The position numbers and the translations under genes were made by a program. A stretch of DNA of 64,000 bases. It comes from Coriobacteriia bacterium. Lineage in GTDB: Bacteria > Actinomycetota > Coriobacteriia > Anaerosomatales > Anaerosomataceae. The stretch lies in NCBI GenBank assembly GCA_030651765.1, contig JAUSBY010000015.1, positions 74,043 through 138,042 on the forward strand. Reading direction: 5' to 3'. The stretch's first letter is position 1. The number at the start of each line of letters is the position of its first letter. Below the pieces are notes generated by a model. That model was not told the DNA's origin. It ran no database searches and saw nothing but the letters and a program-made list of their open reading frames with translations. Positions 8,641-22,209 of this stretch are shown here, piece after piece.

Positions 8641-8729
8641 CGGATTGCCGAGGCTACAGTGATCGCACGAACTGTCCGATTCAACTAGGAAGCTGCAGCA
8701 CGCAACTCCTCAGATGAACGGCGGTGGTC

Positions 8730-9239
8730 ATGGCGCGGCGCAATGATGGCTTCTTGGATCTAGTCGTGGAACTCCCGTGGTGGGTCGGTGTCATCGTCGC
8801 CGGCCTCGCCTATGCAGTCATGCGGTACATGATTCCGAGCATCGTTAGTGACAGTCCCTTCACGGCGGCGCTGGGCCAGGTGAGCTACGGCCTCGCCCCG
8901 TACGGAGCAGGGCTGACCCTTCTTGCGGCAGGTGTTTCGGCGATTCGCTCGTTACTCGAGTATCTGCGCGGACATCGGCAGCACACAGCCTCGCCGAGAA
9001 TCGACCCTCCGCCCAGCAGGGGACCGCGCCCCGTCGTCCAGCGGCCCGCCCCGCGCGCTAGCACCCAGTCCGGCGGTCCGGTCGAGCGTCGACCAGTGAC
9101 CGTTGCATCCCGTCCTTGCCCGCGCTGCGGTGGCGCGCTGGTCATGCGCCGCGCGTCGCGCGGGGCGCATGCCGGCTCGAGCTTCTGGGGTTGCTCCAGC
9201 TATCCGAAGTGTCGCCACACAGAAGACGTCACGGCGTGA
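8730..9239 (+). CDS. membrane protein with C-terminal topoisomerase-type C4 zinc finger
   Basis: Two hydrophobic helices (WWVGVIVAGLAYAV; YGLAPYGAGLTLLAAGV), a Pro/Arg linker, then CPRCGGALVMR...FWGCSSYPKCRH (zf-C4_Topoisom pattern). Alternative GTG start at 8724. Confidence 0.7.
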   Translation: MARRNDGFLDLVVELPWWVGVIVAGLAYAVMRYMIPSIVSDSPFTAALGQVSYGLAPYGAGLTLLAAGVSAIRSLLEYLRGHRQHTASPRIDPPPSRGPRPVVQRPAPRASTQSGGPVERRPVTVASRPCPRCGGALVMRRASRGAHAGSSFWGCSSYPKCRHTEDVTA

Positions 9240-9267: not shown

Positions 9268-12183
9268 ATGACTCCTCCTAGCGTTTCACGGGGCATTGCC
9301 TCGCGTATCCTCTACGGCGCCGCCTCTGCCGAGGTGTCCGACGACGGCCTTCTCATTTCCAGTAGGGGCGACAGGGAGTCGTTCGCCCTGGGCGAGTTGA
9401 ATGGACTACTCGCCCGCGAGGACGGCCTGATCTGGTCTACGATGCGGGTACCGACGGCCCGCGGAGAGCGCAGCCTGCGCGGACTGTCGAAGCAGCAGGT
9501 GGAACCGCTTATCGCCGCTGCCAATGCCGCTGTGGCCGAAGACGCCGCCAGCCGCTACGCGCATCTTGAGCCCATACTCAGTGCTCTCGTCACCCGCCTC
9601 GACGCGCTGGATGCTCGCTCGCGCTACATCCGCCACTCAGAGGCTAAGGCGCTGCTCGATGAGATCCGCTCAGCGCTCACGATCCGCTCAGACTCCCTCT
9701 GGCGTCAGTACGCTCCGCTGTCGCAGAAGGTGAAGATCGGGCGTTTGACGCTGCTCGCTGAATCCGAGGGTGGGATCGAGGGATGGATCGAGTCGGTCAG
9801 GTCGGCCTTCGTCGAACACGAGCTGGCTGAGCACGCCGCCTTCTTCGACAGCGTCGAGAGCAAGCCGCTCACCGAGGCACAGCGCCGGGCCTGCGTGATC
9901 GCCGAGGACAACAACCTTGTCCTTGCCGGCGCTGGCACCGGCAAGACCAGCGTCATGATCGGCCGCGCAGGGTATCTCATCTCGTCCGGCCGGGCGAAGC
10001 CGGACGAGATCCTCATGCTGGCATTCGGTCGCAAGGCGGCTCAGGAGATGCAGGGGCGACAGGACTCGCGGCTCGAGGCCTGGCTCACTGCCGGCACGCC
10101 GACGATCAAGACGTTCCACGCGCTCGGCCTCGAGATCATCGGGAAGGTGGAGGGCAGGCGCCCGGACATCACGGTCATGGCCGAAGACCAGCTGCGGTTC
10201 ACGACCTTCGTCGATGAGACGATAGCCTCGCAGTGCGAGGAGGATGAGTATCGGCAGCGACTGATCCGCTACTGCGGCACCGAGCGCTTCCCATACCGAA
10301 ACTGGTTCGACTTCACGACCGAGGCCGAGTACCTCGAGTACGTGCGGGTGAATGAGCTCCGCACGCTCAAGGGCGAGATCGTGAAGAGCTTCGAGGAGAT
10401 GTTCATCGCCAACTACCTCGCGAGCCAGGGTGTGACTTACGAGTACGAGCGCCCGTATGAGGTGGACACCGCCGGCGCGACCTATCGTCAGTACCGCCCA
10501 GACTTCTACCTGCCCGAGCACGGCGTCTACATCGAGCACTTCGCGCTCGACCGCAGTGGTGACCCGCCGCGGTACTTCGACCGTGCCCGGTACGTAGAAG
10601 GGGTTGCGTGGAAGCGGAAGCTTCATGCCGAGCACGGGACACGCCTGATCGAGACGTACTCGTACCTGAAGCGTGAGGATCTGCTGGAGACGACGCTCGA
10701 GGCGGCCCTGGCAGAGGCCGGTGTGACCTTCGATCCACAGCCCACCGAACAGTTGCTTGCGCAGTTGCGGGAGACATCGCAGGTTACGGACTTTGCAGCG
10801 CTGGTTGCGGACTTCATCGGGCTCATGAAGCAGTCCGGCCATACAATCCCCGAACTTCGCACCAAGGCTGTCGCGAACCTGGACGCGTCGCGCATCAATC
10901 TGCTGCTCGATCTGATTGCGCCCGTCTACCTGACCTATGAGGCGACGCTTGCCGAGCGTGGCGAAATCGACTTCGCAGACATGATCTCGCGCGCGACCGA
11001 GCATGTTGAGAGCGGCCGCTATCGGTCACCGTACACCCAGATCATGGTCGACGAGTTCCAGGACATCAGCCCTGCCCGGGCCCGGCTCATACAAGCGCTA
11101 CTGCGTCAGCGGCCCGAGGCGATGCTCTTCGCAGTTGGGGATGACTGGCAATCGATCTACCGCTTCACCGGGAGCGATCTGCGGTACACCACGCGCTTCT
11201 CTGAGATCTTCGGCGCCACCGCCGCAACGGCCCTCGATCTCACATTCCGTTTCAACGACAAGCTCGGTGATGCGGCTTCGAAGTTCGTGCTCAAGAACCC
11301 CGAGCAGGTCCGCAAGGAACTCGCGTCGATGCGCGCTCAGGATGAGCCGGCCGTCTCAATCGTCCCCGCGGCCGCCTTGCGTGTGGGGCTCGATGCGGTC
11401 CTTGAGGCGATACGCCTTCGGGCCGACGGACGGGGCGGGTCTCGGTCCACCGTGCTCGTTCTGGGGCGATTCACGTTCACGTACAGCGAGATCGCGAGTG
11501 CGGAGTACAGGGAGCAGTTGCGTCGGCTACATCCCGCCCTCGACGTGGAGTTCATGACTGCGCACGCGGCCAAGGGCAAGGAGGCCGACTACGTGGTCGT
11601 CTTGGATGTCTCCCAAGGCCGCTACGGATTTCCGAGTGAGCGGCCGGCCGAGCCTGCGCTGGAGTTCCTCTTGCCCGAGGCGGAGCCATTCCGCTTCGCC
11701 GAGGAGCGGCGGCTGTTCTATGTGGCGCTCACACGCGCGCGACACCGCACGTACGTTGTCTGCGACCCTGCGAAGCCATCGACGTTCGTAACCGAACTGC
11801 TGGCCGAAGATGACCCGTACCCGGTGTGCACTGATGAGTGCGGGACTCTCGCATCCGCGCTGACAGCGCAACTGCCCTGCCCTCGATGCCACTCAGGCCG
11901 CCTCGTGGTCCGTGCCGGTCCCTACGGCAGCTTCGTGGGGTGCAGCCACTACCCGTACTGTACGCATCAGGCGCCGGCGTGCCCGGCATGCGGTGGAGTC
12001 ATGCGGCGTACTGGCGAGAGGCGGGTCTGCGTGGACCCTGCGTGTGGCCACAGCGTGCGACTCTGCCCGCGATGCGGTGGTGACCTCGTAGTGCGCAAGG
12101 GGCCGTACGGCCAGTTCATCGGGTGCAGCAACTACGGCAAGGGTGCCTTCTCATGCGGGCACAAGGAGAAGGTAGAGGGGTAG
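9268..12183 (+). CDS. helD: DNA helicase IV (HelD)-like UvrD-family helicase with internal PD-(D/E)xK-like insert and three C-terminal topoisomerase-type zinc fingers
   Basis: FFDSVESKPLTEAQRRACV..NLVLAGAGTGKTSVMIGRAGYL, MVDEFQDISPARARL, LFAVGDDWQSIYRF, FMTAHAAKGKEADYVVVL and EERRLFYVALTRARHR are colinear with E. coli HelD as I remember it. Insert: YEYERPY..YRPDFYLPEHGVYIEHF. Tail: CPRCHSG..GCSHYPYC, CPACGG.., CPRCGG..GCSNYG. Confidence 0.85.
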   Translation: MTPPSVSRGIASRILYGAASAEVSDDGLLISSRGDRESFALGELNGLLAREDGLIWSTMRVPTARGERSLRGLSKQQVEPLIAAANAAVAEDAASRYAHLEPILSALVTRLDALDARSRYIRHSEAKALLDEIRSALTIRSDSLWRQYAPLSQKVKIGRLTLLAESEGGIEGWIESVRSAFVEHELAEHAAFFDSVESKPLTEAQRRACVIAEDNNLVLAGAGTGKTSVMIGRAGYLISSGRAKPDEILMLAFGRKAAQEMQGRQDSRLEAWLTAGTPTIKTFHALGLEIIGKVEGRRPDITVMAEDQLRFTTFVDETIASQCEEDEYRQRLIRYCGTERFPYRNWFDFTTEAEYLEYVRVNELRTLKGEIVKSFEEMFIANYLASQGVTYEYERPYEVDTAGATYRQYRPDFYLPEHGVYIEHFALDRSGDPPRYFDRARYVEGVAWKRKLHAEHGTRLIETYSYLKREDLLETTLEAALAEAGVTFDPQPTEQLLAQLRETSQVTDFAALVADFIGLMKQSGHTIPELRTKAVANLDASRINLLLDLIAPVYLTYEATLAERGEIDFADMISRATEHVESGRYRSPYTQIMVDEFQDISPARARLIQALLRQRPEAMLFAVGDDWQSIYRFTGSDLRYTTRFSEIFGATAATALDLTFRFNDKLGDAASKFVLKNPEQVRKELASMRAQDEPAVSIVPAAALRVGLDAVLEAIRLRADGRGGSRSTVLVLGRFTFTYSEIASAEYREQLRRLHPALDVEFMTAHAAKGKEADYVVVLDVSQGRYGFPSERPAEPALEFLLPEAEPFRFAEERRLFYVALTRARHRTYVVCDPAKPSTFVTELLAEDDPYPVCTDECGTLASALTAQLPCPRCHSGRLVVRAGPYGSFVGCSHYPYCTHQAPACPACGGVMRRTGERRVCVDPACGHSVRLCPRCGGDLVVRKGPYGQFIGCSNYGKGAFSCGHKEKVEG

Positions 12184-12204
12184 GGTTGAAGTCGGAGTCG
12201 CGGT

Positions 12205-12468
12205 GCGGACCCCGCGCCCCTTCTTCTTCCGCCCCAAGTCGCCGCACAACGCGATCGCGGGCCTTGGGTACTTCGCGAGCTTCAGCGCGCTGCCGGCGTG
12301 GCTCGCGTGGGAGAGCTTCGGACCCAAGAACGGCGCCGCCGACTTCGACGAGATGCGCGCGCATCGAGCGCTACCGCCGTCGCAACGGCGCGCCAGTCTC
12401 CGAGCGCCCGAGCGACTACTCCATCGGCTGCATCATGGCGGCGAGCCCGGTTGTTCTTCCCCGAGGGG
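12205..12468 (+). pseudogene. decayed copy B of the HNH endonuclease gene (internal fragment, frameshifted)
   Basis: Starts directly after the helD stop. PFFFRPKSPHNAIAGLGYFASFSALPAWLAWESFGPKNGAADFDEMRA is then out of frame (2-nt deletion in gatgcgcgcgcatcgag versus gatgcgcgcccgcatcgag, 1-nt insertion in cccggttgttcttcc). Homology ends near ttccccgagg. Confidence 0.8.
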
Positions 12469-12505
12469 TTGGGCCTCGTCTGCACGTGACCCCGAGCTCT
12501 CACCG

Positions 12506-13145
12506 CTACCACTCGCGCGGCTTGCGAACCACGCGAATCCCGAGATGCACAGTCTCCGGCAGCTGCGACCTCTGGAGCACCGAGGCGTTGACGTGTCGCA
12601 TGATGCCGTCTACGCGACCCTGGAAGACGGAACCGCGACGCAGCCGCCCGGTGAACACGATGTGCACCTTCTTGCCGAGCTCTTCCCGGACCATCCTCAC
12701 CGGTTCGAGCAGATCGGAGTCATTGGACGACCACTGCGACATCGTAGCGATCGCGGAATCCGTCCAGAAGGAGATGAGACGCCAGGTTGACGTCCGAGCC
12801 CTTCTCCTTGGTGTCGATGATGGCGACCGTGTCGGGCGGGACGCGTGCACTGTCCGCGAGAGGGCGTCTGACGACGTTGGAGCGGAACTCACCGAGGTGT
12901 ACCGACACATCAGGCAGGGACTTGAGGGCCTCAAGATACGTGCCTTGCCGGTAGTGTCCGGTTGCGTCCCACGGAAGCGGCTTCAGGCGTGCCGTGAAGT
13001 ATCTGATCAGCACAATGTCGTACGCAGGCAGCAGCGTCTTCGCGAAGGCAGAGAGGTCGAGCCAGCGATGCGGCGTGTTGCGCAGCAGCCCGTAGTACAG
13101 GTTGAATCCGTCAATGTAGACGATGGCGATTGGCCGCGGTGTCAT
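12506..13145 (-). pseudogene. NYN/LabA-like (PIN-related) ribonuclease-domain gene with a single frameshift
   Basis: The N-terminal part (IAIVYIDGFNLYYG ... EKGSDVNLASHLL ... YDVAVVVQ*) stops at 12720-12722. The continuation SNDSDLLEPVRMVREELGKKVHIVF...SQLPETV reads in the next frame. The junction gtggtcgtccaatgactcc is consistent with a 1-nt loss. Confidence 0.75.
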
Positions 13146-13371
13146 GCCGAGTGTCCCCCGAAATGCGGAGGCCGCCTTGCGGCGGCCCTCGCGCCCTGGA
13201 TCGCAACCCAGGGGTGGTAAACCGATTCTGCCGAGCGATGCAGGACCTGTCAACAGGCTCGCAGGAGCATCATGGCACGCCGACCTCAACCGGATGCCAC
13301 CCGGATCCAAACCGCATCACACCCCTGCGCTACACTCCCCGTAGGGCTCCAATCGCCGGGGGGATCCGCCC

Positions 13372-14307
13372 ATGCGCGGCTACATCGGGAACACCGACTA
13401 CGACTGGTACCGCTTCTTGGCCTCGCAGCCCGGCATCGACGAGGTGAACTTCTGGCAGCCGTCGGCAAGCGCGAGCTTCAGCGCGCTGCGGCCCGGCGAG
13501 CCATTCTTCTTCCGCCTCAAGTCGCCGCACAACGCGATCGCCGGCTTCGGGTACTTCGCGAGCTTCAGCGCGCTGCCGGCGTGGCTCGCATGGGAGAGCT
13601 TCGGGCCCAAGAACGGCGCCGCCGATTTCGACGAGATGCGCGCCCGCATCGAGCGCTACCGCCGTCGCAACGGCGCGCCTGCCTCCCAGCGTCCGGGCGA
13701 CTACTCGATCGGCTGCATCATGGTGGCGAGCCCGGTGTTCTTCCCCGAGGAGCTGTGGGTTCGCGAGCCGAAGGGCTGGGCCCCCAACATCGTGCGCGGT
13801 CGCGGTGAGGATCTCACGACCGGCGAGGGCCTGCGCATCTTCACCGAGAGCCTCGACCGCGCGCAGCACCTGGGCGCGCCGGTGTTGGCCGCCGAGCCGG
13901 GCGCGCCCCGCTACGGTGAGCCGACGCTCGTGGCGCCGCGGCTCGGGCAGGGTATCTTCCGCGTGTCGGTTCTCGACGCGTACGACCGCGCGTGCGCGGT
14001 CACGGGCGAGCACTCGCTGCCGGTGCTCGAGGCGGCGCACATCATGCCGTACGCGTCCGGCGGCACGCACCAGGTCACCAACGGGTTGCTGCTCCGAAGC
14101 GACATCCACCGCCTGTTCGACCTGGGCTACGTGACGGTCACGCCCGAGTATCGCTTCCAGATCTCAGATGCGCTGGCCGAGGACTTCCACAACGGTCGGA
14201 CGTACTACGCCGAGCGGGGGAAGCGAGTGATCCTGCCGAAGGCGGAGGAGATGCGTCCGAGCAGGGACCTGCTCGCGTGGCATGGAGAGAGTGTGTGGCG
14301 GGGGTGA
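13372..14307 (+). CDS. HNH endonuclease (HNH_2 type) with ~170-aa N-terminal putative DNA-reader domain; candidate restriction nuclease
   Basis: C-terminal CAVTGEHSLPVLEAAHIMPY....NGLLLRSDIHRLFDLGYVTV is the HNH_2 pattern found in COG3440-like predicted restriction endonucleases. Only this copy is intact. Confidence 0.85.
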   Translation: MRGYIGNTDYDWYRFLASQPGIDEVNFWQPSASASFSALRPGEPFFFRLKSPHNAIAGFGYFASFSALPAWLAWESFGPKNGAADFDEMRARIERYRRRNGAPASQRPGDYSIGCIMVASPVFFPEELWVREPKGWAPNIVRGRGEDLTTGEGLRIFTESLDRAQHLGAPVLAAEPGAPRYGEPTLVAPRLGQGIFRVSVLDAYDRACAVTGEHSLPVLEAAHIMPYASGGTHQVTNGLLLRSDIHRLFDLGYVTVTPEYRFQISDALAEDFHNGRTYYAERGKRVILPKAEEMRPSRDLLAWHGESVWRG

Positions 14308-14388
14308 TTGCTCACCCGGGGATTCAGCCTCCCCGTGTCAGCATGATGAGCTATCCTCCAGAACGGGAGACCTGAATCTAGGAGCGAG

Positions 14389-15093
14389 TTGAAGCACCGA
14401 TACGCATATGAGCGTGAGCTCGTCGCCGACTTAGTTGATGAGCTGCCGGCCACCCCCGTCTCCAATCTGCCGCTTGCTGCAGCATGGGGCGAGGTGGTCT
14501 TCTCCACTCGTGTCGTGGACGTAGTCGGGCTGTACGCGTCATCACAGTGCTCACAAGTCGGTGAGGCCCTCGCTGGTTTCGAGGACAGAGATCTTCTGGT
14601 TCTTGCAGCAATCATCGCCTGTGGTCCGATATCTAGTGAACGGCTTACCTCAACGCTCGGGGCGGGAGCGGAGCGGGCAGTAAAGCAGTCGGTCGGCCGG
14701 CTGATGAACAATGATCTCGTGAGCCCAGGTCCGCGGGCATTGCGATCATCCTTGGGAGAAGTGCTGAAGGAATGCGAAGTTGCTGCAATTGAGGCGAAGC
14801 TGCACAAGCAGAAGGACGTGCTGCGTCAGGCAGAAGACAATCTGGGGCTGGCCGACTTCTCCTATGTCGCACTACCAGTAACGGTTGCCTTCAAGGAGGA
14901 TTTCCTGACCAGCGCACGTACGTGTGGGCTGGGGGTCATGTCCGTAGATCCAACTGGGTTGTTCGTACTGGTCAGGGCGCCGAGACGGCGTGGCGCGAGG
15001 CGAGGCATCGTACAGACGCATTTCACGTTGCGCCTGTTGCAGGAGAGTGCTGCCAGGACCGGCAGATGGATTAGCACAGGGGGGACTACCTAA
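14389..15093 (+). CDS. hypothetical protein, possible PD-(D/E)xK nuclease fold interrupted by a winged-helix domain
   Basis: TTG start with AGGAG 6 nt upstream. VVDVVGLY (Asp strand) ... wHTH-like LLVLAAIIACGPISSERLTSTL..SVGRLMNNDLVS ... AAIEAKLHK (ExK). The fold assignment is inference only. Confidence 0.55.
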   Translation: MKHRYAYERELVADLVDELPATPVSNLPLAAAWGEVVFSTRVVDVVGLYASSQCSQVGEALAGFEDRDLLVLAAIIACGPISSERLTSTLGAGAERAVKQSVGRLMNNDLVSPGPRALRSSLGEVLKECEVAAIEAKLHKQKDVLRQAEDNLGLADFSYVALPVTVAFKEDFLTSARTCGLGVMSVDPTGLFVLVRAPRRRGARRGIVQTHFTLRLLQESAARTGRWISTGGTT

Positions 15094-15890
15094 TGGGCGG
15101 TTTCAGCCCCGACCTTCAAGCGTCCGAAATCCAGGGGCAGATTCCGGGGTTGAGTCTAGCTAGTGCGCTGCCCGCAGGCGGACAAGGCGCCGTCTTTCGG
15201 GGAGTCCATGCCGAGCATGGCGACGTCGTTCTGAAGGTCGTCCTGCCGCAGTTCGAAGAACGAACGCGCCGCGAAATCGACGCCCTCCGTACACTCCGTC
15301 TGCCGAATGTGGTTCGACTGCTGGATCATGGCTACATCGACGTGAGGCAGGAGACTTGCCCTTACACACTGACGCGACTGGTAACAGGGGATGACATTAG
15401 AACGCGCATCCTTAACGGAGACCATATGGACGAGTTTCAGGCACGCGAGCTTATCCGTGGAGTAGCCGCCGCGCTTGACGAGTTGTGGCGCAAAGAAATC
15501 GTGCACAGAGACGTGAAGCCACCGAACATCATTTGGTCGACGTTGGGGACTGCCGTGCTCATAGACCTGGGCGTCGCGCGACATCTGACACGAACGGATC
15601 TGACGACGTATGGAGGATGGCTGGGGACGCGAGGCTTCATGGCGCCCGAACAAGCCTCTGGGGAGAAGCACCTGACCGTACGAGCCGACGTCTTTGGCCT
15701 AGGGGTAACGGCACACATGGCCATTACTGGAGTGCATCCATTTGGTGGCCAAGACGAGATTATGGCCGGGAAGAGGCCGACTAGCGTTGCGACAGTGAGC
15801 GACAACTTGTCGGCTCTCCTACTGTCGATGATGTCATTGAGGCCGATCGATCGCCCGACGGCTCGAAACCTGTTGGAGGCGTTGTCTTGA
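15093..15890 (+). CDS. Hanks-type Ser/Thr protein kinase, kinase domain only
   Basis: GGQGAVFRG (G-loop), VVLKVV (Lys), HRDVKPPNIIW, DLGVAR, GTRGFMAPE. The ATG overlaps the upstream stop (TAATG). Confidence 0.85.
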   Translation: MGGFSPDLQASEIQGQIPGLSLASALPAGGQGAVFRGVHAEHGDVVLKVVLPQFEERTRREIDALRTLRLPNVVRLLDHGYIDVRQETCPYTLTRLVTGDDIRTRILNGDHMDEFQARELIRGVAAALDELWRKEIVHRDVKPPNIIWSTLGTAVLIDLGVARHLTRTDLTTYGGWLGTRGFMAPEQASGEKHLTVRADVFGLGVTAHMAITGVHPFGGQDEIMAGKRPTSVATVSDNLSALLLSMMSLRPIDRPTARNLLEALS

Positions 15891-17137
15891 TGCCGAAGAT
15901 GCTCTACAACTGCCACGGTTCCTGGAGTTGTCGAGGGATTGAGGCGGCGGATGGTCGAATCATCCACGCCGCCGGCTTCGCTGAGAAGCGAGACTGCACT
16001 GGAGCGGCATCTGAAGGATTCGGTATCGTCGACTGCGATCCTCTGGTGTGGAATCTGCCGTATGACCCCCACGCAACTGTCTGCAACAAGATTGCTACGC
16101 ATGCGTTTCTTCCGATTGCCACGCCCCGCTTTGAAGATTGGCACGGCAAGGAGAGCGAGTGGATCGCCGCGGCAATCGCCCCGGTGGTATCAGCGGATTG
16201 GCCTCCTCCCTTGCCTTCAACTACTGGAGACATCGAGGGATTCATCGTCGACTGCCTGACCTGGCAAGGTCGCCTGCAGCCCACGTTGCTGACTGTTCCG
16301 ACGCCCCCGCTTGCGGGAGCGACGCCGGACTTGGATGCATTCCTCAAATGGCTACGCGCAGGTACACGTGCGGCTTCATACCTGCAGCCGAGCGAGACCA
16401 CGCTATTGTCCGTCACGGTAGAGGAAGGACTGCTCTCGACAGTAGGGGACGTCCTTCTTGACCAGATCACCGCCAGAGAGGGAATCGACGGGGTCTACTT
16501 GAACGTTGTCACGCACAAGACCGAGTTGGGCGAGCGGATCACTCAGGATGTGGCGACTTCACTTGTGCGGTTCGTTCGCGACCTCGCGCCTCACAGGCGC
16601 GTCTTCGTGAATGGCGTCGATCTCTTCGGATTGGTGCTACTCGGGGCCGGCGCGGAAGGAATCGGAATCGGCTATGAGCTTAAGGGGATGCGCCTGAACA
16701 CCAACGACTTCAAAGACACCAACAGTCGAGGAGCGTTTCCAAGAATGCTGTCGCTGGCGCTGTGCAAGAGGTTGGCCTTGGCAGAAATCGAGGTGCTTCG
16801 CAACGTTGGCTTGTTGGATCGTCTCGAGTCGGACCGTACCGATTCAAGCTCTGTACTCCTTGACGCTATACGTGACCGTCGGGACCTACGCACGATTATT
16901 CCGTGGCGACCCACTAAGGGGACTGTGGGTGAGGCACGGCGCCACTACATTCTTCGGCATGAAGGGGTCAAGCGCGAGTTGGATCCCATGAGCCAACGGG
17001 AGCGCTGGGAGTGGGTCGCGGGCTGGCTAGATACCTGCGACGCAAACATCAGCGACTTCTGTCAAGCGACTGGCAAGCGCCCGCAACAGGTGGGGGCGGG
17101 TCACGTGTCCGCTTGGCGTGAAGCAGTGTCTAAGTAG
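15890..17137 (+). CDS. hypothetical 415-aa protein with no recognisable motif
   Basis: The ATG overlaps the kinase stop (TGATG). Composition is coding-like and the ORF is long in a lower-G+C stretch. I recognised no motif. Confidence 0.65.
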   Translation: MPKMLYNCHGSWSCRGIEAADGRIIHAAGFAEKRDCTGAASEGFGIVDCDPLVWNLPYDPHATVCNKIATHAFLPIATPRFEDWHGKESEWIAAAIAPVVSADWPPPLPSTTGDIEGFIVDCLTWQGRLQPTLLTVPTPPLAGATPDLDAFLKWLRAGTRAASYLQPSETTLLSVTVEEGLLSTVGDVLLDQITAREGIDGVYLNVVTHKTELGERITQDVATSLVRFVRDLAPHRRVFVNGVDLFGLVLLGAGAEGIGIGYELKGMRLNTNDFKDTNSRGAFPRMLSLALCKRLALAEIEVLRNVGLLDRLESDRTDSSSVLLDAIRDRRDLRTIIPWRPTKGTVGEARRHYILRHEGVKRELDPMSQRERWEWVAGWLDTCDANISDFCQATGKRPQQVGAGHVSAWREAVSK

Positions 17138-17230
17138 ACCAGTAGTGGCTGTATTGGACGATTCCGCGCATCGCAGATAAAGTCGTTCAAGTTGGGAGGG
17201 AGTCCGGGCGATTGATTCACGGCTGACTCT

Positions 17231-19009
17231 ATGCGGCCGGTAGTGACGACGGTTAGTCTACACGTCCTTGGATGCTTCGTATCGATGTCTACTATCGCAT
17301 TGCGCGGTGAGGTAGAAGAGGAATCCCCGGACGCCCTTCCACTCCGCGACGCCTTTCTTGCGATTCTCGATCTTGAGGACCTTGCATCCTTCTTCGGTAC
17401 GGCGTACGAGGACTTGGGCCGCCTCATCTACGGCTACAAGCCGCAGTACAAGTATCGGACGTTCCTGATTCCGAAGAAGCGCAGCGGTTATCGAAAGATA
17501 TCGACCCCGTGCAAGAGCCTGAGACGCATTCAGAATCGGCTGAAGGCCGCCTTGGACGAGGTCTATCGGCCAAAGGCCTCAGTACACGGTTTCGTGAACG
17601 ACAGGAGCATCGTCACTAACGCGGACGCCCACCTCCGCAAACGGTACGTGTTCAACCTGGATCTGAGGGACTTCTATGGCTCGATCCACTTCGGCCGGGT
17701 GCGCAACCTGTTCATGAAGGATCCGTTCTCCTTCTCGTACGAGGTAGCGACCGTTGTCGCGCAAATCTGCTGCTTCGAAGGGTCTTTGCCTGCCGGGGCT
17801 CCGACTTCGCCTGTTGTCTCCAACATGATCGCCAGGAAGCTTGACTCCCGCTTGCAGACGATGGCCCGCAGGCGAAATTGCACCTACAGCAGGTACGCCG
17901 ACGACATCACCTTCTCATTTGACAAGCCGAGACTGCCCCATGACCTGGTCGATACTTCGGGCATGCACGCCCAGCCGGGCGCGGCGCTGCTGCAGGCAAT
18001 TGAGGACAACGGCTTCGAGGTGAATTATGAGAAGGTGCGATTGACCGGCCGATCTCAGCGGATGGAAGTCACCGGCCTGACGGTAAACGAGGCCGTGAAC
18101 GTTCGACGCCAATACGTTCGAGAACTGTCGTCAATGCTGCATGCATGGGAGAAGTTCGGTCTCGACAAGGCACAGGAGACCTTCCACTCAAGATTCGCGA
18201 AGCCTCACAGCGCTAGCGGTCAGCCCAAGTCTCTCGCTCATGTCGTGCACGGTAAGCTGGCGTTCTTGAAGAGTGTTAGGGGCGGGGACGATCCTCTGTA
18301 TAACCGGCTCGCCAGTAGGTTCAACAAGCTGGTGGGCGACAGCGCACTCGCATTGAATGTCGTCTCAATCTATGGTGCCGAGGAGTCATTGTGGATCGTG
18401 CACGCTAATGATCCGAAGGATACGAAGGAGCTTGAGCACCAAGGCAGCGGCTTCTCGTTGAGAGGAGTCGGCATTGTTACTTGTTGGCATGCCGTGAGTG
18501 AGCCGGTCTCACCGAAGTCCAGGTCGAGAAGACTGCTACCCATCGTCGAGGTATCAGGCTGGGATCGTCCGCTACCACGAACTCGTGCCAAGGTTGTCTT
18601 TCACGACGAAGACAGGGACCTGGCGATCTTACAGCGAGTAGGCGTTGACGAGGCCAAGACCACCCCCGCGCTCGTGATGTCAGAGCGTGACATCGCACAT
18701 CGACTACCACTCCACCTGCTTGGCTTTCCGGGCTGGCATGTTGGCGAAAGCTATAGCGACAAAGCGGTCAGGATATCGGCCTTGCGTACGGATCACGGTG
18801 TGCAGAAGTTCAACATTGACCAGCGGATTGACCATGGCAATAGTGGCGGCCCTCTCGTTGACGTAGAAGGCAAGGTGGCCGGAGTCGCCGTTGAACGCTC
18901 GTGGGATGGAGTCGGTAAGGACGGCGCTATTCACTACCTGGAATTGGAAGTAGTAGTCGAGGCATATCTTGACGACTTGGCATCAGGCAACGACCTGGCT
19001 GGGGCATAG
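17231..19009 (+). CDS. retron-type reverse transcriptase fused to a C-terminal trypsin-like (S1/Trypsin_2) serine protease
   Basis: RT motifs: NADAH (NAxxH), FNLDLRDFYGSI, SPVVSN, YSRYADDITFSF (YADD at 17894-17905), MEVTGLTVN (VTG). Protease triad: TCWHAV (His 18488-18490), DRDLAIL (Asp 18617-18619), GNSGGPLVD (Ser 18842-18844). Alternative ATG at 17285. Confidence 0.85.
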   Translation: MRPVVTTVSLHVLGCFVSMSTIALRGEVEEESPDALPLRDAFLAILDLEDLASFFGTAYEDLGRLIYGYKPQYKYRTFLIPKKRSGYRKISTPCKSLRRIQNRLKAALDEVYRPKASVHGFVNDRSIVTNADAHLRKRYVFNLDLRDFYGSIHFGRVRNLFMKDPFSFSYEVATVVAQICCFEGSLPAGAPTSPVVSNMIARKLDSRLQTMARRRNCTYSRYADDITFSFDKPRLPHDLVDTSGMHAQPGAALLQAIEDNGFEVNYEKVRLTGRSQRMEVTGLTVNEAVNVRRQYVRELSSMLHAWEKFGLDKAQETFHSRFAKPHSASGQPKSLAHVVHGKLAFLKSVRGGDDPLYNRLASRFNKLVGDSALALNVVSIYGAEESLWIVHANDPKDTKELEHQGSGFSLRGVGIVTCWHAVSEPVSPKSRSRRLLPIVEVSGWDRPLPRTRAKVVFHDEDRDLAILQRVGVDEAKTTPALVMSERDIAHRLPLHLLGFPGWHVGESYSDKAVRISALRTDHGVQKFNIDQRIDHGNSGGPLVDVEGKVAGVAVERSWDGVGKDGAIHYLELEVVVEAYLDDLASGNDLAGA

Positions 19010-19118
19010 AGACGGCAGATCACGATTACGGGCGTGACAACAGCCCTCTCTTTCCAGGCTTGACCTGCTGAGATTCCACGACTCCTAATCCCAGGGTCAA
19101 CTGTCGCTTGGCCATTCT

Positions 19119-19460
19119 CTACAGCTCCGTGTACTTCTCCCGCTTGCCCTTCGCCTTCTTCGCGGGGTACCTCTCGTCGTTCTTCGCGAGCTTTCGCTGC
19201 ACCGCCTTGGCCGGATCGATCCCCGTATCGTGTGCGAGCAGCAGCGCGTAGATCAGCACGTCGGCGATCTCCTCTTCGATCTCGCTGCGACGCTTCTCCA
19301 CGTCCTCAGCGATTGTCTCGTCGCTGCTCCACTGGAAGCATTCGAGCAACTCAGCGGCCTCGATGCTTATGCTCGCCGCCAGGTTTCTCGGCGAGTGGAA
19401 CTGCTTCCAGTCGCGCTCGTCTCGGAACTCCACGATCTGTCGGGTGAGGTCTTCGAGCAT
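19119..19460 (-). CDS. MazG-like nucleotide pyrophosphohydrolase (single-domain)
   Basis: FRDERDWKQFHSPRNLAASISIEAAELLE..EEIADVLIYALLLA is the EExxE/metal-binding helix pattern of MazG/YpjD-type enzymes. A GGAGGG RBS lies in the 3' end of the upstream gene, with a 5-nt spacer after its stop. Confidence 0.85.
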   Translation of the reverse strand: MLEDLTRQIVEFRDERDWKQFHSPRNLAASISIEAAELLECFQWSSDETIAEDVEKRRSEIEEEIADVLIYALLLAHDTGIDPAKAVQRKLAKNDERYPAKKAKGKREKYTEL

Positions 19461-19465
19461 CGGTA

Positions 19466-21403
19466 TCAGCCCTCCAGCGGGTCTTCGGCGGCGAGTGGCG
19501 CGGCGGTCGGCGTGAGCGCGTAGTCGGCCTTCGGCATGCGGCTGCGCAGGTACTCGCCCAGTGCAGCTTCGGTGCAGAACACGTAGCAGCCCTTCATGCC
19601 GCGGGTCATGAGCACGCGGTAGGTGTTGCGGATGAGATCGTCGGCGATGCGGGCGGCGCGCTCGGGGTCGTGCTTGGCGAGCTTCACGATGCCGCTGAGC
19701 GCCTTGTCGGACTTTGCACGCTTCGTGCGGTCGGTGATCACGCGGCCACCCTCGAAGCGCAGGTCGTTGCCCACGATCACGCCCACGTAGTCGAACTCGA
19801 GTCCCTGGCAGGTGTGGATGCAGCCCACCTGGTCGACCGAACCCTCGTCGATCGCCCACGTGTCGCTGTTGTTGAGGTTCCACGAGCGCGCGTAGGTGTG
19901 CGCGGGGATGACGATGTCGTGGTGGTTGGGGTTCGCGCGCCTGGCGCCGCTTTCCCACTCCCAGCAGTAGCCGGCCACCACGCGCGACTTGTTGGCCACA
20001 CGGTTCTTTTCGGCGATGGCTGCGTGCATTGCGTTCGGGTCGTCGAAGACGCGGAAGTCGTAGTCGAGGTCGGCCACATCCTCCTCGGCAGGGCGGATGC
20101 CCAGCACATCGTCGAGCCAGGTGAGGTAGCCGTCGCTGCCATTGCAGCGGAACTGCGAGAACAGGTCGGCCTCGTGGACGTGCGCACCCGCCGCCTCGGC
20201 ATGCGCACGGATGTCGGACACCGTGCCGGCGTCGCGGAGCGTGACGCGCTGCGTCTCGTCGATGAAGAAGACCGTGAAGCGCGCCGCCGCGATGAGCTCG
20301 GCAATCTGGTTCTCGCCCAGGTTGCCGTACAGGCCCGACTTCTCGTTCAGTCGGTGCGCTTCGTCGATCACGAGCGCGTCGAACGATTCCTCGGCCAGCT
20401 CCCAGAAGGCGCCCGAGCCGCGAAAGAGGTTGTTGATGTATGAGAGGGTGCGGTCTCTCCCGCGCAGCAGGCGCGCGTACACGTTGCGCGGCGCGCTGTT
20501 CTTGGAGACGTACTGGACCGTCATCTCCTCGGCGGTGAGACGCACGAGCAGGTTCACCGCCACCACCGACTTGCCGGTGCCAGGGCCGCCCCGGACGATG
20601 AGCACGTGCTTCTCGCTGGTGCGCTGCGCCTCGCGCGCGAGGGCCACGGCGGCCTCGAAGACCACCTTCTGGTCGTCGATCATCACGAACTCGTCGTTGC
20701 CGTCGAGCATGCCGGCAAGCGCGTCCTGGAGCGACTTGGACGGGCGCAGTCGGCCGCTCTCGATGTGGTAGAGCACCGCCCCGTCGTCGGCGTGCGTGAT
20801 GTGGCGGCAGATGAAATTGCGGAGCTTCAGCGCGTCGCCGTTGCAGAACGCGGGTGCACGCTCGAGGTACTCGAGGTAGGCGGGGTCGAGCAGGGGGTCG
20901 TACCCCTCGGCGGTGTGGTAGTTGTGCAGGTACGCGCAGGGCACGAGCTCGATCTGCGCGTCTCGGACGGCCTCGTTGTAGTCCTCGATCATGCGGGCGT
21001 ACGACCACGCCTGGTAGGAGGGGTGGGAGACCTCGCGGTGTGCGCCGCCCACGAACGTGCGCACGATGGCGTCTTTGGTGGGCACCGCCTCGAGAGCGCT
21101 CCACTGCTTGAGCTCCACGATCACCGCAGCGTCGCGGTCGCCGTTCTGGCGGCCGGTGAGCAGGAAGTCGATTCGGCTGCTCGTGTACGGCACCCCAAAC
21201 TCGATCGCCACGCCGCAGCCGCCGGGGATCGCCTCGGTGTTGAGCACCCGGTACATGTACTGCATCGAGTTGCGCCAGCTCTCCACCTCGCGCGGGTTGG
21301 CGCGGTGGATCCTGCGCTCGAAGGCCGCCGTGATGTGGTCGACGATCAAGTCGCGGTCCACGTCGTCCATGAACTCGGCCTTGGAGGCTTGATAGACGAG
21401 CAC
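19466..21403 (-). CDS. DUF2075-family (Schlafen-like) P-loop ATPase/helicase-like protein
   Basis: N-terminus VLVYQASKAEFMDDV..., Walker A GGPGTGKSVVAVNLL, DEAHRL, and C-terminal VLMTRGMKGCYVF are typical of DUF2075. GTG start at 21403 chosen because family members start at (M/V)xVYQ. Confidence 0.85.
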   Translation of the reverse strand: MLVYQASKAEFMDDVDRDLIVDHITAAFERRIHRANPREVESWRNSMQYMYRVLNTEAIPGGCGVAIEFGVPYTSSRIDFLLTGRQNGDRDAAVIVELKQWSALEAVPTKDAIVRTFVGGAHREVSHPSYQAWSYARMIEDYNEAVRDAQIELVPCAYLHNYHTAEGYDPLLDPAYLEYLERAPAFCNGDALKLRNFICRHITHADDGAVLYHIESGRLRPSKSLQDALAGMLDGNDEFVMIDDQKVVFEAAVALAREAQRTSEKHVLIVRGGPGTGKSVVAVNLLVRLTAEEMTVQYVSKNSAPRNVYARLLRGRDRTLSYINNLFRGSGAFWELAEESFDALVIDEAHRLNEKSGLYGNLGENQIAELIAAARFTVFFIDETQRVTLRDAGTVSDIRAHAEAAGAHVHEADLFSQFRCNGSDGYLTWLDDVLGIRPAEEDVADLDYDFRVFDDPNAMHAAIAEKNRVANKSRVVAGYCWEWESGARRANPNHHDIVIPAHTYARSWNLNNSDTWAIDEGSVDQVGCIHTCQGLEFDYVGVIVGNDLRFEGGRVITDRTKRAKSDKALSGIVKLAKHDPERAARIADDLIRNTYRVLMTRGMKGCYVFCTEAALGEYLRSRMPKADYALTPTAAPLAAEDPLEG

Positions 21404-21491
21404 GGGGCGGCTCCGGGGAAGAGCGGGCAAGGGCTGGGACCAGGGTAGCAGAGGAGGGAGGCGGTTCACTCCCCTTCGGCATCTTGACCAA

Positions 21492-21507
21492 TCGAACATA
21501 TGTTCTA
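21492..21507. promoter_or_regulatory. SOS (LexA/Cheo) box-like palindrome TCGAACATATGTTCTA
   Basis: Perfect 12-bp palindrome GAACATATGTTC at 21494-21505 in the divergent intergenic region between the DUF2075 and ORF6N genes. It matches the Gram-positive LexA consensus CGAAC-N4-GTTC. Confidence 0.45.
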
Positions 21508-21529
21508 TCATGGGCAGTGGGGATGTGTC

Positions 21530-21596
21530 CTGTGATTTCAAGTCAGGCCTGTGACCAGGGCAAACGATCTTGACATCACAGACTGTGATTTCAAGT
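21530..21596. repeat. two direct copies of CTGTGATTTCAAGT (21530-21543 and 21583-21596)
   Basis: Exact 14-mer repeated 53 bp apart in the same divergent promoter region. ATCTTGAC also occurs twice (21481 and 21566). Confidence 0.6.
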
Positions 21597-21607
21597 TGGG
21601 GGAAACC

Positions 21608-22120
21608 ATGACGGACGGGACTGCACTGATGCCGGTTGAGGCTGCGGAGTTGCGCATTCGTGTCGTCCGGGATACCCGGGTAATCCTTGATGCTGACCTT
21701 GCCGTGCTCTACGGGGTGGAGACACGTATGCTCGTGCAGGCGGTCCGCCGCAACCCCGACCGCTTCCCTTCGGACTTCATGTTCGAGCTGACATTGGACG
21801 AGTGGGCGGCCCTCAGGAGTGCTGCATCGGCCATGGATGGCTGGGGTGGGCGCCGCACGCCGCCGCTCGCCTTCACGGAGCAGGGCATCGCAATGCTCTC
21901 CAGCGTGCTCCGTAGTCCCCGGGCGGTCGCGGTCAACGTGCAGATCATGCGTGCGTTCGTGCGGCTGCGCGAGATTCTTGCGGAGAACGCAGACCTGTCG
22001 CGTCGGCTGGATGATCTGGAGCAGCGATACGACGACCAGTTCAAGATCATCATCCAGGCGATTCAGGCGCTCACGGCACCACCGGTGAGGCCGCGGAATC
22101 CGGTGGGGTTCAGGCCCTGA
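21608..22120 (+). CDS. ORF6N/KilA-N-like DNA-binding domain protein
   Basis: IRVVRDTRVILDADLAVLYGVETRMLVQAVRRNPDRFPSDFMFELT is the ORF6N pattern, followed by a coiled-coil C-terminus. Start uncertain (GTG 21551 or ATG 21608). Confidence 0.65.
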   Translation: MTDGTALMPVEAAELRIRVVRDTRVILDADLAVLYGVETRMLVQAVRRNPDRFPSDFMFELTLDEWAALRSAASAMDGWGGRRTPPLAFTEQGIAMLSSVLRSPRAVAVNVQIMRAFVRLREILAENADLSRRLDDLEQRYDDQFKIIIQAIQALTAPPVRPRNPVGFRP

Positions 22121-22209
22121 GTCACCCTCGGCAGACGCCCGCCACCCCGAACTCGATCGCCACGGATCTTGCGCTCGAAGGCCAGGGCGGACGGGGGCCG
22201 TGTCCCGCC

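What the first reader, a model, noticed from the sequence alone, without database searches (positions are those of the whole stretch)
14389..19009. Lower-G+C four-gene cassette: nuclease-like wHTH protein, Ser/Thr kinase, 416-aa orphan, retron-type RT-protease fusion
Four co-directional genes lie between an HNH restriction-like gene and a convergent DUF2075-MazG operon. The first three are translationally coupled: TAATG at 15091-15095 and TGATG at 15888-15892. A 93-147 nt gap follows, and then a reverse transcriptase carrying the retron hallmarks NAxxH (NADAH), YADD and VTG, fused in frame to a complete trypsin-like protease. Spot G+C counts of single lines inside the cassette are ~53% (for example 16681-16740), against ~65% in flanking lines (for example 33001-33060). 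That points to horizontal acquisition. Protease-associated retrons appear in published retron censuses. I cannot place this RT-protease fusion together with a stand-alone Hanks kinase, a PD-(D/E)xK-like wHTH protein and a large orphan in any described retron type, DRT or kinase defence system from memory. The working hypothesis is a composite abortive-infection system: the RT (and any msDNA) acts as a guard, and the protease, kinase or nuclease-like proteins act as effectors.
Basis: partly seen in the sequence, partly recalled or inferred. Interest (0 to 1): 0.9.

Follow-up and report, generated by a model that had tools for sequence, protein, structure and literature searches.

The report
Type XI retron beside undescribed kinase operon
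The four-gene cassette is real, but it is best read as two separate units lying side by side: an already-classified type XI retron (non-coding RNA plus a reverse transcriptase-protease fusion) and a conserved, so far undescribed three-gene operon (DNA-binding protein, Ser/Thr kinase, TIM-barrel enzyme) that may be a new phage-defence system.

Summary
All four ORFs, the overlapping stop/start codons, the RT and protease motifs, the flanking genes and the lower G+C (58.3% against 67.0% for the window) are confirmed.

The RT-protease matches PADLOC's RT-Protease_XI model at 1e-166. It also has its own conserved ncRNA (17183-17347) with covarying a1/a2 arms, so it is a complete canonical type XI retron.

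The other three genes form a separate operon, here called A-K-O:
- A is a MarR-like wHTH protein with a PD-(D/E)xK-like motif.
- K is a minimal Hanks-type kinase.
- O, the 416-aa 'orphan', belongs to a family of about 206 clusters with no Pfam, NCBIfam, PADLOC or PHROG match. It is a TIM barrel whose nearest fold is tRNA-guanine transglycosylase.

All three genes recur together in 12 distinct loci, once with A moved, and often next to R-M, Abi or mobile-element genes.

The RT-protease follows the trio only in the window and one other locus (L006). It is absent from 11 other trio loci with downstream sequence. The trio is absent from 11 other RT-protease loci and about 80 further retron RT loci.

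Verdict: two adjacent modules, co-inherited in one sublineage. An obligate composite system is not supported. The trio is the novel part, and its function is inferred.

The parts
14389..15093 (+). Gene A (234 aa): central MarR-like winged helix flanked by a conserved PD-(D/E)xK-like motif set. The motifs are RVVDVV 14509-14526, IEAKL 14788-14802, QAEDN 14827-14841 and DFSYVA 14854-14871.
   Evidence: ORF. No family in Pfam, PADLOC, NCBIfam or PHROGs. In the 9-sequence alignment A7, E135, K137, Q147, A148, D156 and G182 are invariant. The profile matches MarR regulators in the PDB at 1e-5 over the central part only. The nuclease fold is inference.
15093..15890 (+). Gene K (265 aa): minimal Hanks-type Ser/Thr kinase with an intact Gly loop (15177-15197), VLK lysine (15225-15242), HRDVKPPN (15504-15527), DLG (15564-15572) and APE (15642-15650). 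Its start overlaps the stop of A (TAATG).
   Evidence: Pfam Pkinase 3e-33. PADLOC PD-T4-6 4e-44 and mad6 5e-43. NCBIfam MADS6 scores only 95 bits against a cut-off of 460.
15887..17137 (+). Gene O (416 aa from TTG 15887, or 415 aa from ATG 15890, the NCBI start): member of an unannotated family of ~415-440-aa TIM-barrel proteins with a C-terminal helical bundle. Its start overlaps the stop of K (TGATG).
   Evidence: No family hit. Exhaustive HMMER search: 206 representatives at E<=1e-3 and 163 at <=1e-10. AF2 model pLDDT 95. Top 20 PDB fold matches are all tRNA-guanine transglycosylases, E 3e-4, TM 0.43-0.52, ~10% identity. hhalign against E. coli Tgt is not significant.
17154..17183 (+). Promoter-like element, TTGGAC (17154-17159), 18 nt, TAAAGT (17178-17183). 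It ends ~10 nt upstream of the a1 arm. The TGGAC and TAnAGT parts are conserved in L006.
   Evidence: Read from the sequence and the alignment with L006. The consensus scanner did not flag it. Inference only.
17183..17347 (+). Retron ncRNA (msr-msd) candidate: a1 arm 17193-17208, a2 arm 17326-17341, and a covarying msr hairpin after a1. The 3' part overlaps the first ~19 codons of the RT ORF.
   Evidence: Inverted repeats at the same place in the window and L006, in stand-alone type XI loci and above shuffles in 6 of 8 loci (the window alone is marginal). RNAalifold finds 15/20 pairs with compensatory changes. The covariance model hits non-training loci only, directly upstream of RT genes: L026 6e-8, L022 9e-6, L030 1e-5, L109 1e-25, L108 1e-4. 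88% of cells are paired against 58% in shuffles.
17285..19009 (+). [quoted passage not shown]
   Evidence: PADLOC RT-Protease_XI 1e-166 (554 bits); the next best is RT-TIR_XII at 6e-123. Pfam RVT_1 and Trypsin_2. Thousands of homologues with the same architecture. Triad residues are invariant in A5.

Best explanation
The 4.7-kb low-G+C block holds two self-contained modules that were acquired, or at least retained, together in one lineage.

Module 1 (17154-19009) is a canonical type XI retron: a promoter-like element, an msr-msd ncRNA flanked by a1/a2 arms, and one ORF fusing a retron RT to a trypsin-like protease. By analogy with characterised retrons (inferred, not shown for type XI), the RT copies part of the ncRNA into msDNA. 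The RT-msDNA complex keeps the fused protease silent. Phage interference with the msDNA or the complex releases the protease, which cleaves host or phage proteins and aborts infection.

Module 2 (14389-17137) is a translationally coupled three-gene operon, A-K-O, conserved as a unit across distant lineages and independent of any RT. Its likeliest role (inferred from context) is a kinase-based defence or conflict system. The three proteins probably form a complex. The minimal Hanks kinase would transduce or trigger the response by phosphorylation. The wHTH/PD-(D/E)xK-like protein would bind, and possibly cut, DNA. The TGT-like TIM-barrel protein would be an enzyme acting on a nucleic acid or nucleotide substrate.

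The two modules sit in a defence island (HNH, UvrD-like helicase, DUF2075-MazG, ORF6N neighbours) and need not interact.
For: Retron identity: PADLOC RT-Protease_XI 1e-166, and the RT and protease motifs are intact.

Own ncRNA: conserved a1/a2 arms and an msr hairpin with covariation, found upstream of stand-alone RT-proteases too.

Autonomy of type XI: 11 other full-length RT-protease loci, about 75 further retron RT loci (955 kb) and the nearest RT-domain relatives (L108, L109) carry no A, K or O gene. PADLOC and the literature describe type XI as a single gene (PMC7736814; Toro 2026 preprint).

Autonomy of the trio: A, K and O co-occur in 12 distinct loci (window, L001, L006, L011, L012, L013, L016, L017, L020, L103, L105, L107). 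In L107 the A gene has moved to the other side on the opposite strand, so it is co-occurrence that is conserved, not just gene order. In most of these loci the next gene is convergent, and none except L006 has the retron ncRNA or RT.

Tight coupling: stop/start overlaps or gaps of 1-10 nt in the window and in other loci.

Defence or mobile context of trio loci: type I R-M plus GmrSD (L011), HsdR plus DUF4143 (L012), DUF262 plus Res/methylase (L001), Abi_C (L002), integrase (L016), transposase (L105), SocA/Panacea (L020).

Horizontal origin: 58.3% against 67.0% G+C, and related loci elsewhere are also 58-60%.
Against: The four-gene arrangement recurs in L006 at deep divergence (A 43%, K 61%, O 47%, RT 62% identity) with a different upstream gene. 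The two trio-linked RT-proteases are each other's closest relatives, and the next full-length RT-proteases are at most 47% identical. The adjacency is therefore old and may be selected.

No terminator-like site lies between O and the ncRNA, and the gap is only 45-55 nt, so read-through co-transcription is possible.

The defence role of the trio is contextual only. Some loci sit in non-defence surroundings: a polysaccharide cluster in L103, parAB in L013, and an unclear context in L107.

The TGT resemblance is at fold level only (TM ~0.5; hhalign probability 0.5%). The nuclease assignment of A is motif-based.

No experiment exists for either module in this organism.
Confidence: 0.7

Rival explanations
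1. Integrated four-gene system. In this sublineage the retron and the kinase trio work together. For example, the retron's msDNA could act as the infection sensor, with its protease activating, or being regulated through phosphorylation by, the A-K-O proteins.
For: Same strand, a 45-55 nt gap and no terminator-like site between O and the ncRNA. The arrangement is conserved in L006 despite 43-62% identity and a different upstream flank. The trio-linked RT-proteases form their own pair at 62% identity, against at most 47% to other full-length members. Trio and RT have similar G+C (59.2% and 57.2%). In the closest trio relatives the same downstream slot holds other defence-type genes: DUF262/GmrSD_N in L001 and Abi_C in L002. 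That could be read as effector swapping.
Against: Only 2 of 13 trio-family loci with downstream sequence have the RT, and distant trios end with a convergent gene and no fourth partner. None of the 11 other RT-protease loci, the ~75 other retron loci, or the nearest RT-domain relatives has the trio. The retron keeps its own ncRNA and a promoter-like element, as in stand-alone loci. With n=2, shared descent of one island explains the recurrence.
Confidence: 0.17
2. The A-K-O trio is not an immune system. It is instead a regulatory or metabolic module, for example a MarR-like regulator controlled by a Ser/Thr kinase together with a TIM-barrel enzyme. Alternatively it is a maintenance or addiction module of mobile elements that merely happens to land in variable regions.
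For: A has a MarR-type wHTH. Some loci are not in obvious defence islands: a polysaccharide biosynthesis cluster in L103, parAB in L013, and a methyltransferase, transporter and sigma factor in L107. PADLOC models match neither A nor O. The family was not found in the plasmid or phage collections.
Against: About half of the loci adjoin R-M, GmrSD/DUF262, Abi_C, a retron, an integrase or a transposase. The family is rare and patchy, and its G+C differs from the host's, as expected of mobile accessory genes. The kinase scores best against anti-phage kinase models (PD-T4-6 and mad6). A's conserved D...ExK...Q motif outside the wHTH suggests catalysis rather than pure regulation.
Confidence: 0.3
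3. The kinase alone is a PD-T4-6-type single-gene defence, and A and O are unrelated passengers.
For: PADLOC PD-T4-6 models match K at up to 4e-44 over nearly the whole protein. PD-T4-6 is listed there without partner genes.
Against: K is translationally coupled to A and O here, and it is accompanied by both in all 12 distinct loci with enough flank, including one with rearranged order. The generic kinase domain explains the HMM hit, since 34 PADLOC kinase models match.
Confidence: 0.08

Closest known systems
[quoted passage not shown] 2020, PMC7736814; PADLOC 'RT-Protease_XI')
   Same: The architecture is the same single ORF: a retron RT with NAxxH, YADD and VTG motifs plus a C-terminal S1-type protease. 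It is the best PADLOC hit at 1e-166. An a1/a2-flanked ncRNA lies directly upstream, as in stand-alone family members.
   Different: The RT ORF starts upstream of the a2 arm, so about 19 codons overlap the ncRNA (also true in L006). Its RT domain is closer to some RT-TIR proteins (57-58% identity) than to most RT-proteases (at most 47%). It lies 45-55 nt downstream of a kinase operon, which is not a feature of the type.
Retron types XII (RT-TIR) and I-C (RT-Toprim, Retron-Eco2): single-protein retrons of the same RT clade
   Same: The RT domains are related: PADLOC 6e-123 and 1e-108, NCBIfam Retron_TIR 1e-107 and Ec67 family 1e-98. The ncRNA model built from the type XI loci also hits upstream of an RT-TIR gene (L108, 1e-4). 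The logic is the same, with the effector fused to the RT.
   Different: The effector domain here is a protease, not TIR or Toprim. NCBIfam scores are below the cut-offs for those families.
Kinase-based anti-phage systems: PD-T4-6 (single kinase), Stk2, MADS (MAD6 kinase), TerY-P triad, Pgl/BREX type 2 PglW
   Same: K is a Hanks-type Ser/Thr kinase scoring 4e-44 against PD-T4-6 and 5e-43 against mad6 models. Its loci have defence-island-like surroundings.
   Different: Partner genes A and O match no model of these systems. The MADS6 score is 95 against a cut-off of 460, and PglW 44 against 990. No vWA, PP2C, methyltransferase or PglX/Y/Z partners are present in the trio.
tRNA-guanine transglycosylase / DpdA superfamily (Dpd 7-deazaguanine DNA modification)
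   Same: The O model's top 20 PDB fold matches are all TGT TIM barrels, and O is of comparable size.
   Different: The similarity is weak: TM 0.43-0.52, ~10% identity, rmsd 7-9 A. There is no Pfam TGT hit in any of 90 members. hhalign against E. coli Tgt gives probability 0.5%. No conserved Cys/His zinc site appears among the invariant columns. The trio loci examined have no DpdB, DpdC or preQ0 genes.

Membership tests
Retron type XI | Retron-clade RT with NAxxH (region X), YxDD and VTG (region Y) motifs | tested here: met
   NADAH, YADD and VTG are located at 17618-17632, 17894-17905 and 18068-18076. They are invariant or nearly so in A5. Pfam RVT_1 9e-21.
Retron type XI | [quoted passage not shown] | tested here: met
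   Pfam Trypsin_2 1e-12, residues 405-552 of the 592-aa ORF. His402, Asp445 and Ser520 are invariant in 16 family members.
Retron type XI | Best profile match is the type XI model rather than other retron, DRT or group II models | tested here: met
   PADLOC RT-Protease_XI 1e-166 (554 bits), against RT-TIR_XII 6e-123 and RT-Toprim_I-C 1e-108. Drt2, Drt3a and group II intron RTs score only 1e-6 to 1e-11. No phylogeny was built.
Retron type XI | Adjacent msr-msd ncRNA with a1/a2 inverted repeats | tested here: met
   Window 17183-17347. Covariation and covariance-model hits occur only upstream of RT genes. Mestre 2020 found no ncRNA for this type. Khan 2024 reports validated ncRNAs for 'clade 8, type XI'.
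Retron type XI | Production of msDNA / RT-DNA and phage defence | not testable with these tools
   This needs expression and nucleic-acid analysis. I found no report of phage-defence activity for an RT-protease retron in the papers searched.
Retron type XI | Single-gene system with no conserved accessory ORF | tested here: met
   11 other full-length RT-protease loci have unrelated neighbours and no A, K or O gene. L006 is the one exception.
PD-T4-6 (single-gene Ser/Thr kinase defence) | Kinase matching the PD-T4-6 profiles | tested here: met
   Best match 4e-44, 149 bits, covering residues 21-264. No curated threshold is available in this tool.
PD-T4-6 (single-gene Ser/Thr kinase defence) | Acts as a stand-alone gene | tested here: not met
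   K overlaps A and O by stop/start codons, and all 12 distinct loci with enough flank carry all three genes.
MADS (methylation-associated defence system) | MAD6 kinase above the NCBIfam cut-off, with the other mad genes present | tested here: not met
   NF047741 scores 95 bits against a cut-off of 460. A, O and the neighbouring genes hit no mads model other than mad6.
TGT / DpdA superfamily | Sequence-profile membership (Pfam TGT or significant profile alignment) with conserved catalytic Asp residues and a zinc site | tested here: not met
   No Pfam hit in 90 members. hhalign against E. coli Tgt gives probability 0.5%. No invariant Cys/His cluster.
TGT / DpdA superfamily | TGT-type TIM-barrel fold | tested here: inconclusive
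   The top 20 Foldseek PDB hits are all TGTs, but at E ~3e-4 to 3e-3 and TM 0.43-0.52. The viral library gives only one weak TGT-like hit.
PD-(D/E)xK nuclease superfamily (gene A) | Conserved D ... (D/E)xK catalytic motif on an alpha-beta-beta-beta-alpha-beta core | tested here: inconclusive
   The motif set E...RVxDVV...IEAKL...QAxDN is conserved in 9 homologues.
TerY-P triad | vWA (TerY) plus PP2C phosphatase plus Ser/Thr kinase | tested here: not met
   No vWA or PP2C domain appears in A, O or the neighbours.

The most novel reading that the evidence does not exclude
The A-K-O trio (wHTH/PD-(D/E)xK-like protein, minimal Hanks kinase, TGT-like TIM-barrel enzyme) is a new phosphorylation-driven anti-phage system whose effector chemistry acts on nucleic-acid bases or nucleotides. 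In the Coriobacteriia-type sublineage it has additionally become functionally coupled to a type XI retron, which would be the first retron with a kinase partner.
Probability: 0.4. Interest if true: 0.75.

Novelty: new variant of a known kind. Interest (0 to 1): 0.55.

Why it matters
The retron itself is a new member of a known type. What it adds is a clear computational definition of the ncRNA for canonical RT-protease retrons. Mestre 2020 could not find one, and the Khan 2024 census mentions validated type XI ncRNAs only in passing.

The more valuable result is the trio. It is a rare but widely scattered three-gene operon absent from Pfam, NCBIfam, PHROGs and PADLOC. It has a catalytically intact kinase and a confidently modelled TIM-barrel protein of unknown activity, and it repeatedly lies next to restriction and abortive-infection genes. 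If it is a defence system, it adds a new effector chemistry and a new use of Ser/Thr phosphorylation in bacterial immunity.

The window and L006 provide a natural test case for cross-talk between two immune modules. Automated tools would probably label this locus only as 'PD-T4-6 plus retron XI' and miss the operon structure.

Tried and rejected
- Rfam scan of 12000-22500 gave no meaningful hit.
- Pfam, NCBIfam, PHROG and PADLOC searches of A and O gave nothing.
- PDB sequence-profile search with the O family gave only a chance hit to Psu (E 0.83).
- The first AF2 model, from a 3-sequence alignment, was poor (pLDDT 54). The 90-sequence alignment replaced it.
- The genome-contig scan with the single RT-protease sequence returned only 3 RT-only relatives, so that scan was largely wasted.
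It was repeated with 12 sequences.
- The word-indexed search with the O-family alignment added almost nothing.
- The O-domain fusion protein P0233 carries only autotransporter PATR repeats. It is probably a gene-call artefact and is uninformative.
- tblastn of O-family proteins against the plasmid and phage collections found no match.
- No direct repeats bound the low-G+C block, so no att-like ends were found.
- Literature searches for a kinase/TGT-like/wHTH defence system returned nothing matching. The BREX-related 'BRC' system does use a TGT homologue, but with entirely different partners.
- The window's a1/a2 repeat alone is not significant against shuffles. I rely on cross-locus conservation instead.
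- DRT/UG/Abi and group II intron RT assignments are rejected on score.

Full report

The ORF list shows four co-directional ORFs:
- 14389-15093 (234 aa)
- 15093-15890 (265 aa)
- 15887-17137 (416 aa; 415 aa from the ATG at 15890, which is the NCBI start)
- 17231-19009 (592 aa; 574 aa from the ATG at 17285, the NCBI start)

The overlapping stop/start signals TAATG and TGATG are there. The gap before the RT is 93 or 147 nt, depending on the start chosen.

The RT carries NADAH, YADD and VTG. The protease part carries His, Asp and Ser in CWHAV, DRDLAI and GNSGGP, and all three residues are invariant in a 16-member alignment.

Pfam gives Pkinase 3e-33, RVT_1 9e-21 and Trypsin_2 1e-12. It also confirms the flanks: an HNH_2 gene at 13372-14307 and a convergent DUF2075/SLFN-type helicase plus MazG-like pair.

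G+C is 58.3% for the cassette against 67.0% for the window. By exact protein matches, the window comes from a 192,824-bp contig of a Coriobacteriia MAG.

**2. The RT-protease is a complete, canonical type XI retron.**

PADLOC's RT-Protease_XI models match at 1e-166 (554 bits) over almost the whole protein, ahead of RT-TIR_XII (6e-123) and RT-Toprim_I-C (1e-108). DRT and group II intron models score only 1e-6 to 1e-11. The fusion architecture is shared by most of the 120 best hits listed, out of 5,518 proteins with E <= 1e-30.

An inverted repeat lies just upstream: 17193-17208 pairs with 17326-17341, 117 nt apart. The closest relative, L006, has the homologous repeat (14/14 complementary) at the same position. 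Stand-alone RT-protease loci have arms of different sequence but the same spacing and position: GGAAGGAAGCCTAG, TGGAAGGAGGTTTGG, GGGGGGAGCTGGA and others.

The window's repeat alone is only marginal against shuffles. In six of eight loci the repeat exceeds all 40 shuffles.

RNAalifold on seven loci recovers the 12-bp a1/a2 stem and an msr-like hairpin, with compensatory changes in 15 of 20 pairs.

A covariance model built from these loci was run on 973 kb of retron and trio loci, then on five further loci. It hits non-training sequences only directly upstream of RT genes on the coding strand:
- L026 6e-8, L022 9e-6, L030 1e-5, L003 0.01
- L109 1e-25, and the RT-TIR locus L108 1e-4

The only other matches are one short fragment inside the RT gene of the training locus L007 (E 0.92) and its copy in L008 (E 0.048).

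On the resulting alignment, 88% of cells pair against 58% in shuffles and 33-47% in slid controls. All 20 pairs show double changes. The alignment is model-fitted, which inflates these numbers somewhat, but the independent repeat scan agrees.

A promoter-like TTGGAC-18-TAAAGT sits about 10 nt before a1 and is partly conserved in L006. This is inference.

Literature on the ncRNA:
- Mestre et al. 2020 describe type XI as an RT-protease fusion 'lacking recognizable ncRNA modules' (PMC7736814).
- A 2026 preprint reports ncRNAs only for protease-less type XI-like lineages.
- Khan et al. 2024 state that they validated ncRNAs for 'clade 8, type XI'.

The ncRNA is therefore expected and not entirely new. 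It is clearly present here.

**3. The other three genes are a separate, conserved operon (A-K-O).**

The 416-aa protein hits nothing in Pfam, NCBIfam, PHROGs or PADLOC and has only two close relatives in the word-indexed database. An exhaustive HMMER search found 206 representative clusters (163 at E<=1e-10), nearly all 400-440 aa. Ninety of these members were scanned against Pfam and none hit a family, apart from two isolated weak matches.

In every locus with enough flanking sequence, the O homologue is accompanied by a ~265-290-aa Pkinase gene and a ~235-290-aa homologue of the 234-aa protein. That makes 12 distinct loci: window, L001, L006, L011, L012, L013, L016, L017 (=L018/L019), L020, L103, L105 (=L106) and L107. 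In L107 the A gene lies downstream on the opposite strand, so it is co-occurrence, not just order, that is conserved. The genes overlap or are separated by a few bases throughout.

What each protein is:
- **K** has all the catalytic kinase motifs and no extra domains.
- **A** has a central MarR-type winged helix (PDB profile hit 1e-5). It is flanked by a conserved E...RVxDVV...IEAKL...QAxDN...DxSY pattern that looks like a PD-(D/E)xK active site. No profile or structure confirms that fold.
- **O** was modelled at pLDDT 95 with the 90-sequence alignment. It is a TIM barrel with a C-terminal helical bundle. Its top 20 PDB matches are all tRNA-guanine transglycosylases, but only at TM 0.43-0.52 and ~10% identity. 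A profile comparison with E. coli Tgt is insignificant, there is no conserved zinc-site signature, and the viral structure library adds nothing.

The polar invariants of O (Asp51, Asp192, Asn242, Asp245, Lys266, Ser289, His353) mostly lie at or just after the C-terminal ends of predicted strands. This suggests an enzyme, but its chemistry is unknown.

**4. Do the two parts belong together?** Mostly not.

On the trio side, the RT-protease follows the trio in only 2 of 13 trio-family loci with downstream sequence: the window and L006. The closest trio relatives carry other genes in that slot. L001 has a 223-aa ORF plus a DUF262/GmrSD_N gene, and L002 has an Abi_C gene. In most distant loci the next gene is convergent. 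None of these loci has the retron ncRNA.

On the RT side, none of the following carries A, K or O:
- 11 other full-length RT-protease loci
- about 75 further retron RT loci (955 kb in total)
- the nearest RT-domain relatives (RT-TIR in L108, RT-only in L109)

The exception deserves weight. L006 repeats the full four-gene order with a different upstream gene, at 43% (A), 61% (K), 47% (O) and 62% (RT) identity. The two RT-proteases are each other's nearest relatives. By the trio proteins, L001 and L002 pair together (68% in O), while the window and L006 are more divergent. The simplest history is therefore an old adjacency that was later replaced in the L001/L002 branch.

That history fits two neighbouring defence modules travelling as one block, and all related loci have ~58-60% G+C. 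It does not exclude cross-talk. I put the integrated-system reading at about 0.17.

**5. Mechanism.**

Retron (steps inferred from characterised retrons; only the parts list is shown here):
1. Transcription starts from the element before a1.
2. The ncRNA folds via a1/a2.
3. The RT makes msDNA.
4. The RT-msDNA complex restrains the fused protease.
5. Phage perturbation releases proteolysis, leading to abortive infection.

Trio (inferred from composition, coupling and context): a stoichiometric complex in which the kinase senses or relays infection by phosphorylation, A binds and possibly cleaves DNA, and O carries out an enzymatic step on a nucleic-acid or nucleotide substrate.

The defence context is frequent but not universal:
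- Defence or mobile neighbours: type I R-M plus GmrSD (L011), HsdR plus DUF4143 (L012), DUF262 plus Res/methylase (L001), Abi_C (L002), integrase (L016), transposase (L105), Panacea-domain gene (L020), and the window's own island.
- Other contexts: a polysaccharide cluster (L103), parAB (L013) and an unclear context in L107.

I give the trio roughly even odds of being a defence system.

**6. Comparison with known systems, and novelty.**

The retron is a member of type XI. Every computational criterion was met, and msDNA production and defence are untestable here.

The kinase would be labelled PD-T4-6 by profile, but it is never a stand-alone gene. It falls far below the MAD6 and PglW cut-offs and lacks TerY-P partners. 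O is not a TGT/DpdA family member by sequence.

Six literature searches found no description of a wHTH/kinase/TGT-like operon. The library does not cover all journals, so prior description cannot be excluded.

Overall, the finding is a known retron type next to an undescribed kinase operon. The composite idea is only weakly supported, and the trio is the part worth following up.

Noticed in passing
window 12199-12451 and 13482-13736: A ~255-nt direct repeat (90-92% identical), 1283-1285 nt apart. The upstream copy duplicates part of the 5' half of the HNH gene (13372-14307). The two copies flank a minus-strand 196-aa ORF (12720-13310) with no Pfam hit. It looks like a partial gene duplication or an insertion scar.
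   Followed up: partly
window 9268-12183, 19119-21541, 21551-22120: The cassette sits in a defence-island-like stretch. It holds a 971-aa UvrD/helicase IV-like protein with two Top1-type zinc ribbons (weak GajB/RTasHel hits), a convergent DUF2075/SLFN-type helicase plus MazG-like pair, and an ORF6N protein matching PADLOC candidate PDC-S05 at 2e-48.
   Followed up: no
window 17285-17341; L006 3623-3678: In the two trio-linked retrons the RT ORF starts upstream of the a2 arm. About 19 codons (…EVEEESPDALP) are therefore encoded by the 3' end of the ncRNA. In the stand-alone loci L007, L009 and L010 the annotated RT start lies 8-14 nt after a2.
   Followed up: partly
one search hit list; L108 6859-6994; L109 6834-6995: The window's RT domain is 57-58% identical to some RT-TIR (type XII) proteins but at most 47% to most RT-proteases. 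The ncRNA model built from the type XI loci also hits upstream of an RT-TIR gene and, strongly (88 bits), upstream of a protease-less RT. This suggests effector-domain swapping on a shared RT-ncRNA chassis within this clade.
   Followed up: partly
L107 6097-8977: In this trio locus the A-family gene lies downstream of O on the opposite strand (8246-8977, minus) instead of upstream of the kinase. This rearranged but still linked arrangement strengthens the case that the three genes work together.
   Followed up: yes
L001 2665-4370; L002 2126-2932: In the closest trio relatives, the slot occupied by the retron in the window holds other defence-type genes on the same strand: a 223-aa unknown ORF plus a DUF262/GmrSD_N protein in L001, and an Abi_C-domain protein in L002. 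The position downstream of the trio is a fast-turnover site.
   Followed up: partly
L103 2448-13199: One trio copy is embedded in a polysaccharide biosynthesis cluster (rml-type sugar nucleotide genes, a flippase, glycosyltransferases). This is a non-defence context that tempers the defence-system inference.
   Followed up: no
P0233 (1193 aa): An O-family domain (residues ~36-374) appears fused to autotransporter PATR repeats. This is probably a gene-calling or assembly artefact and was not informative about function.
   Followed up: partly
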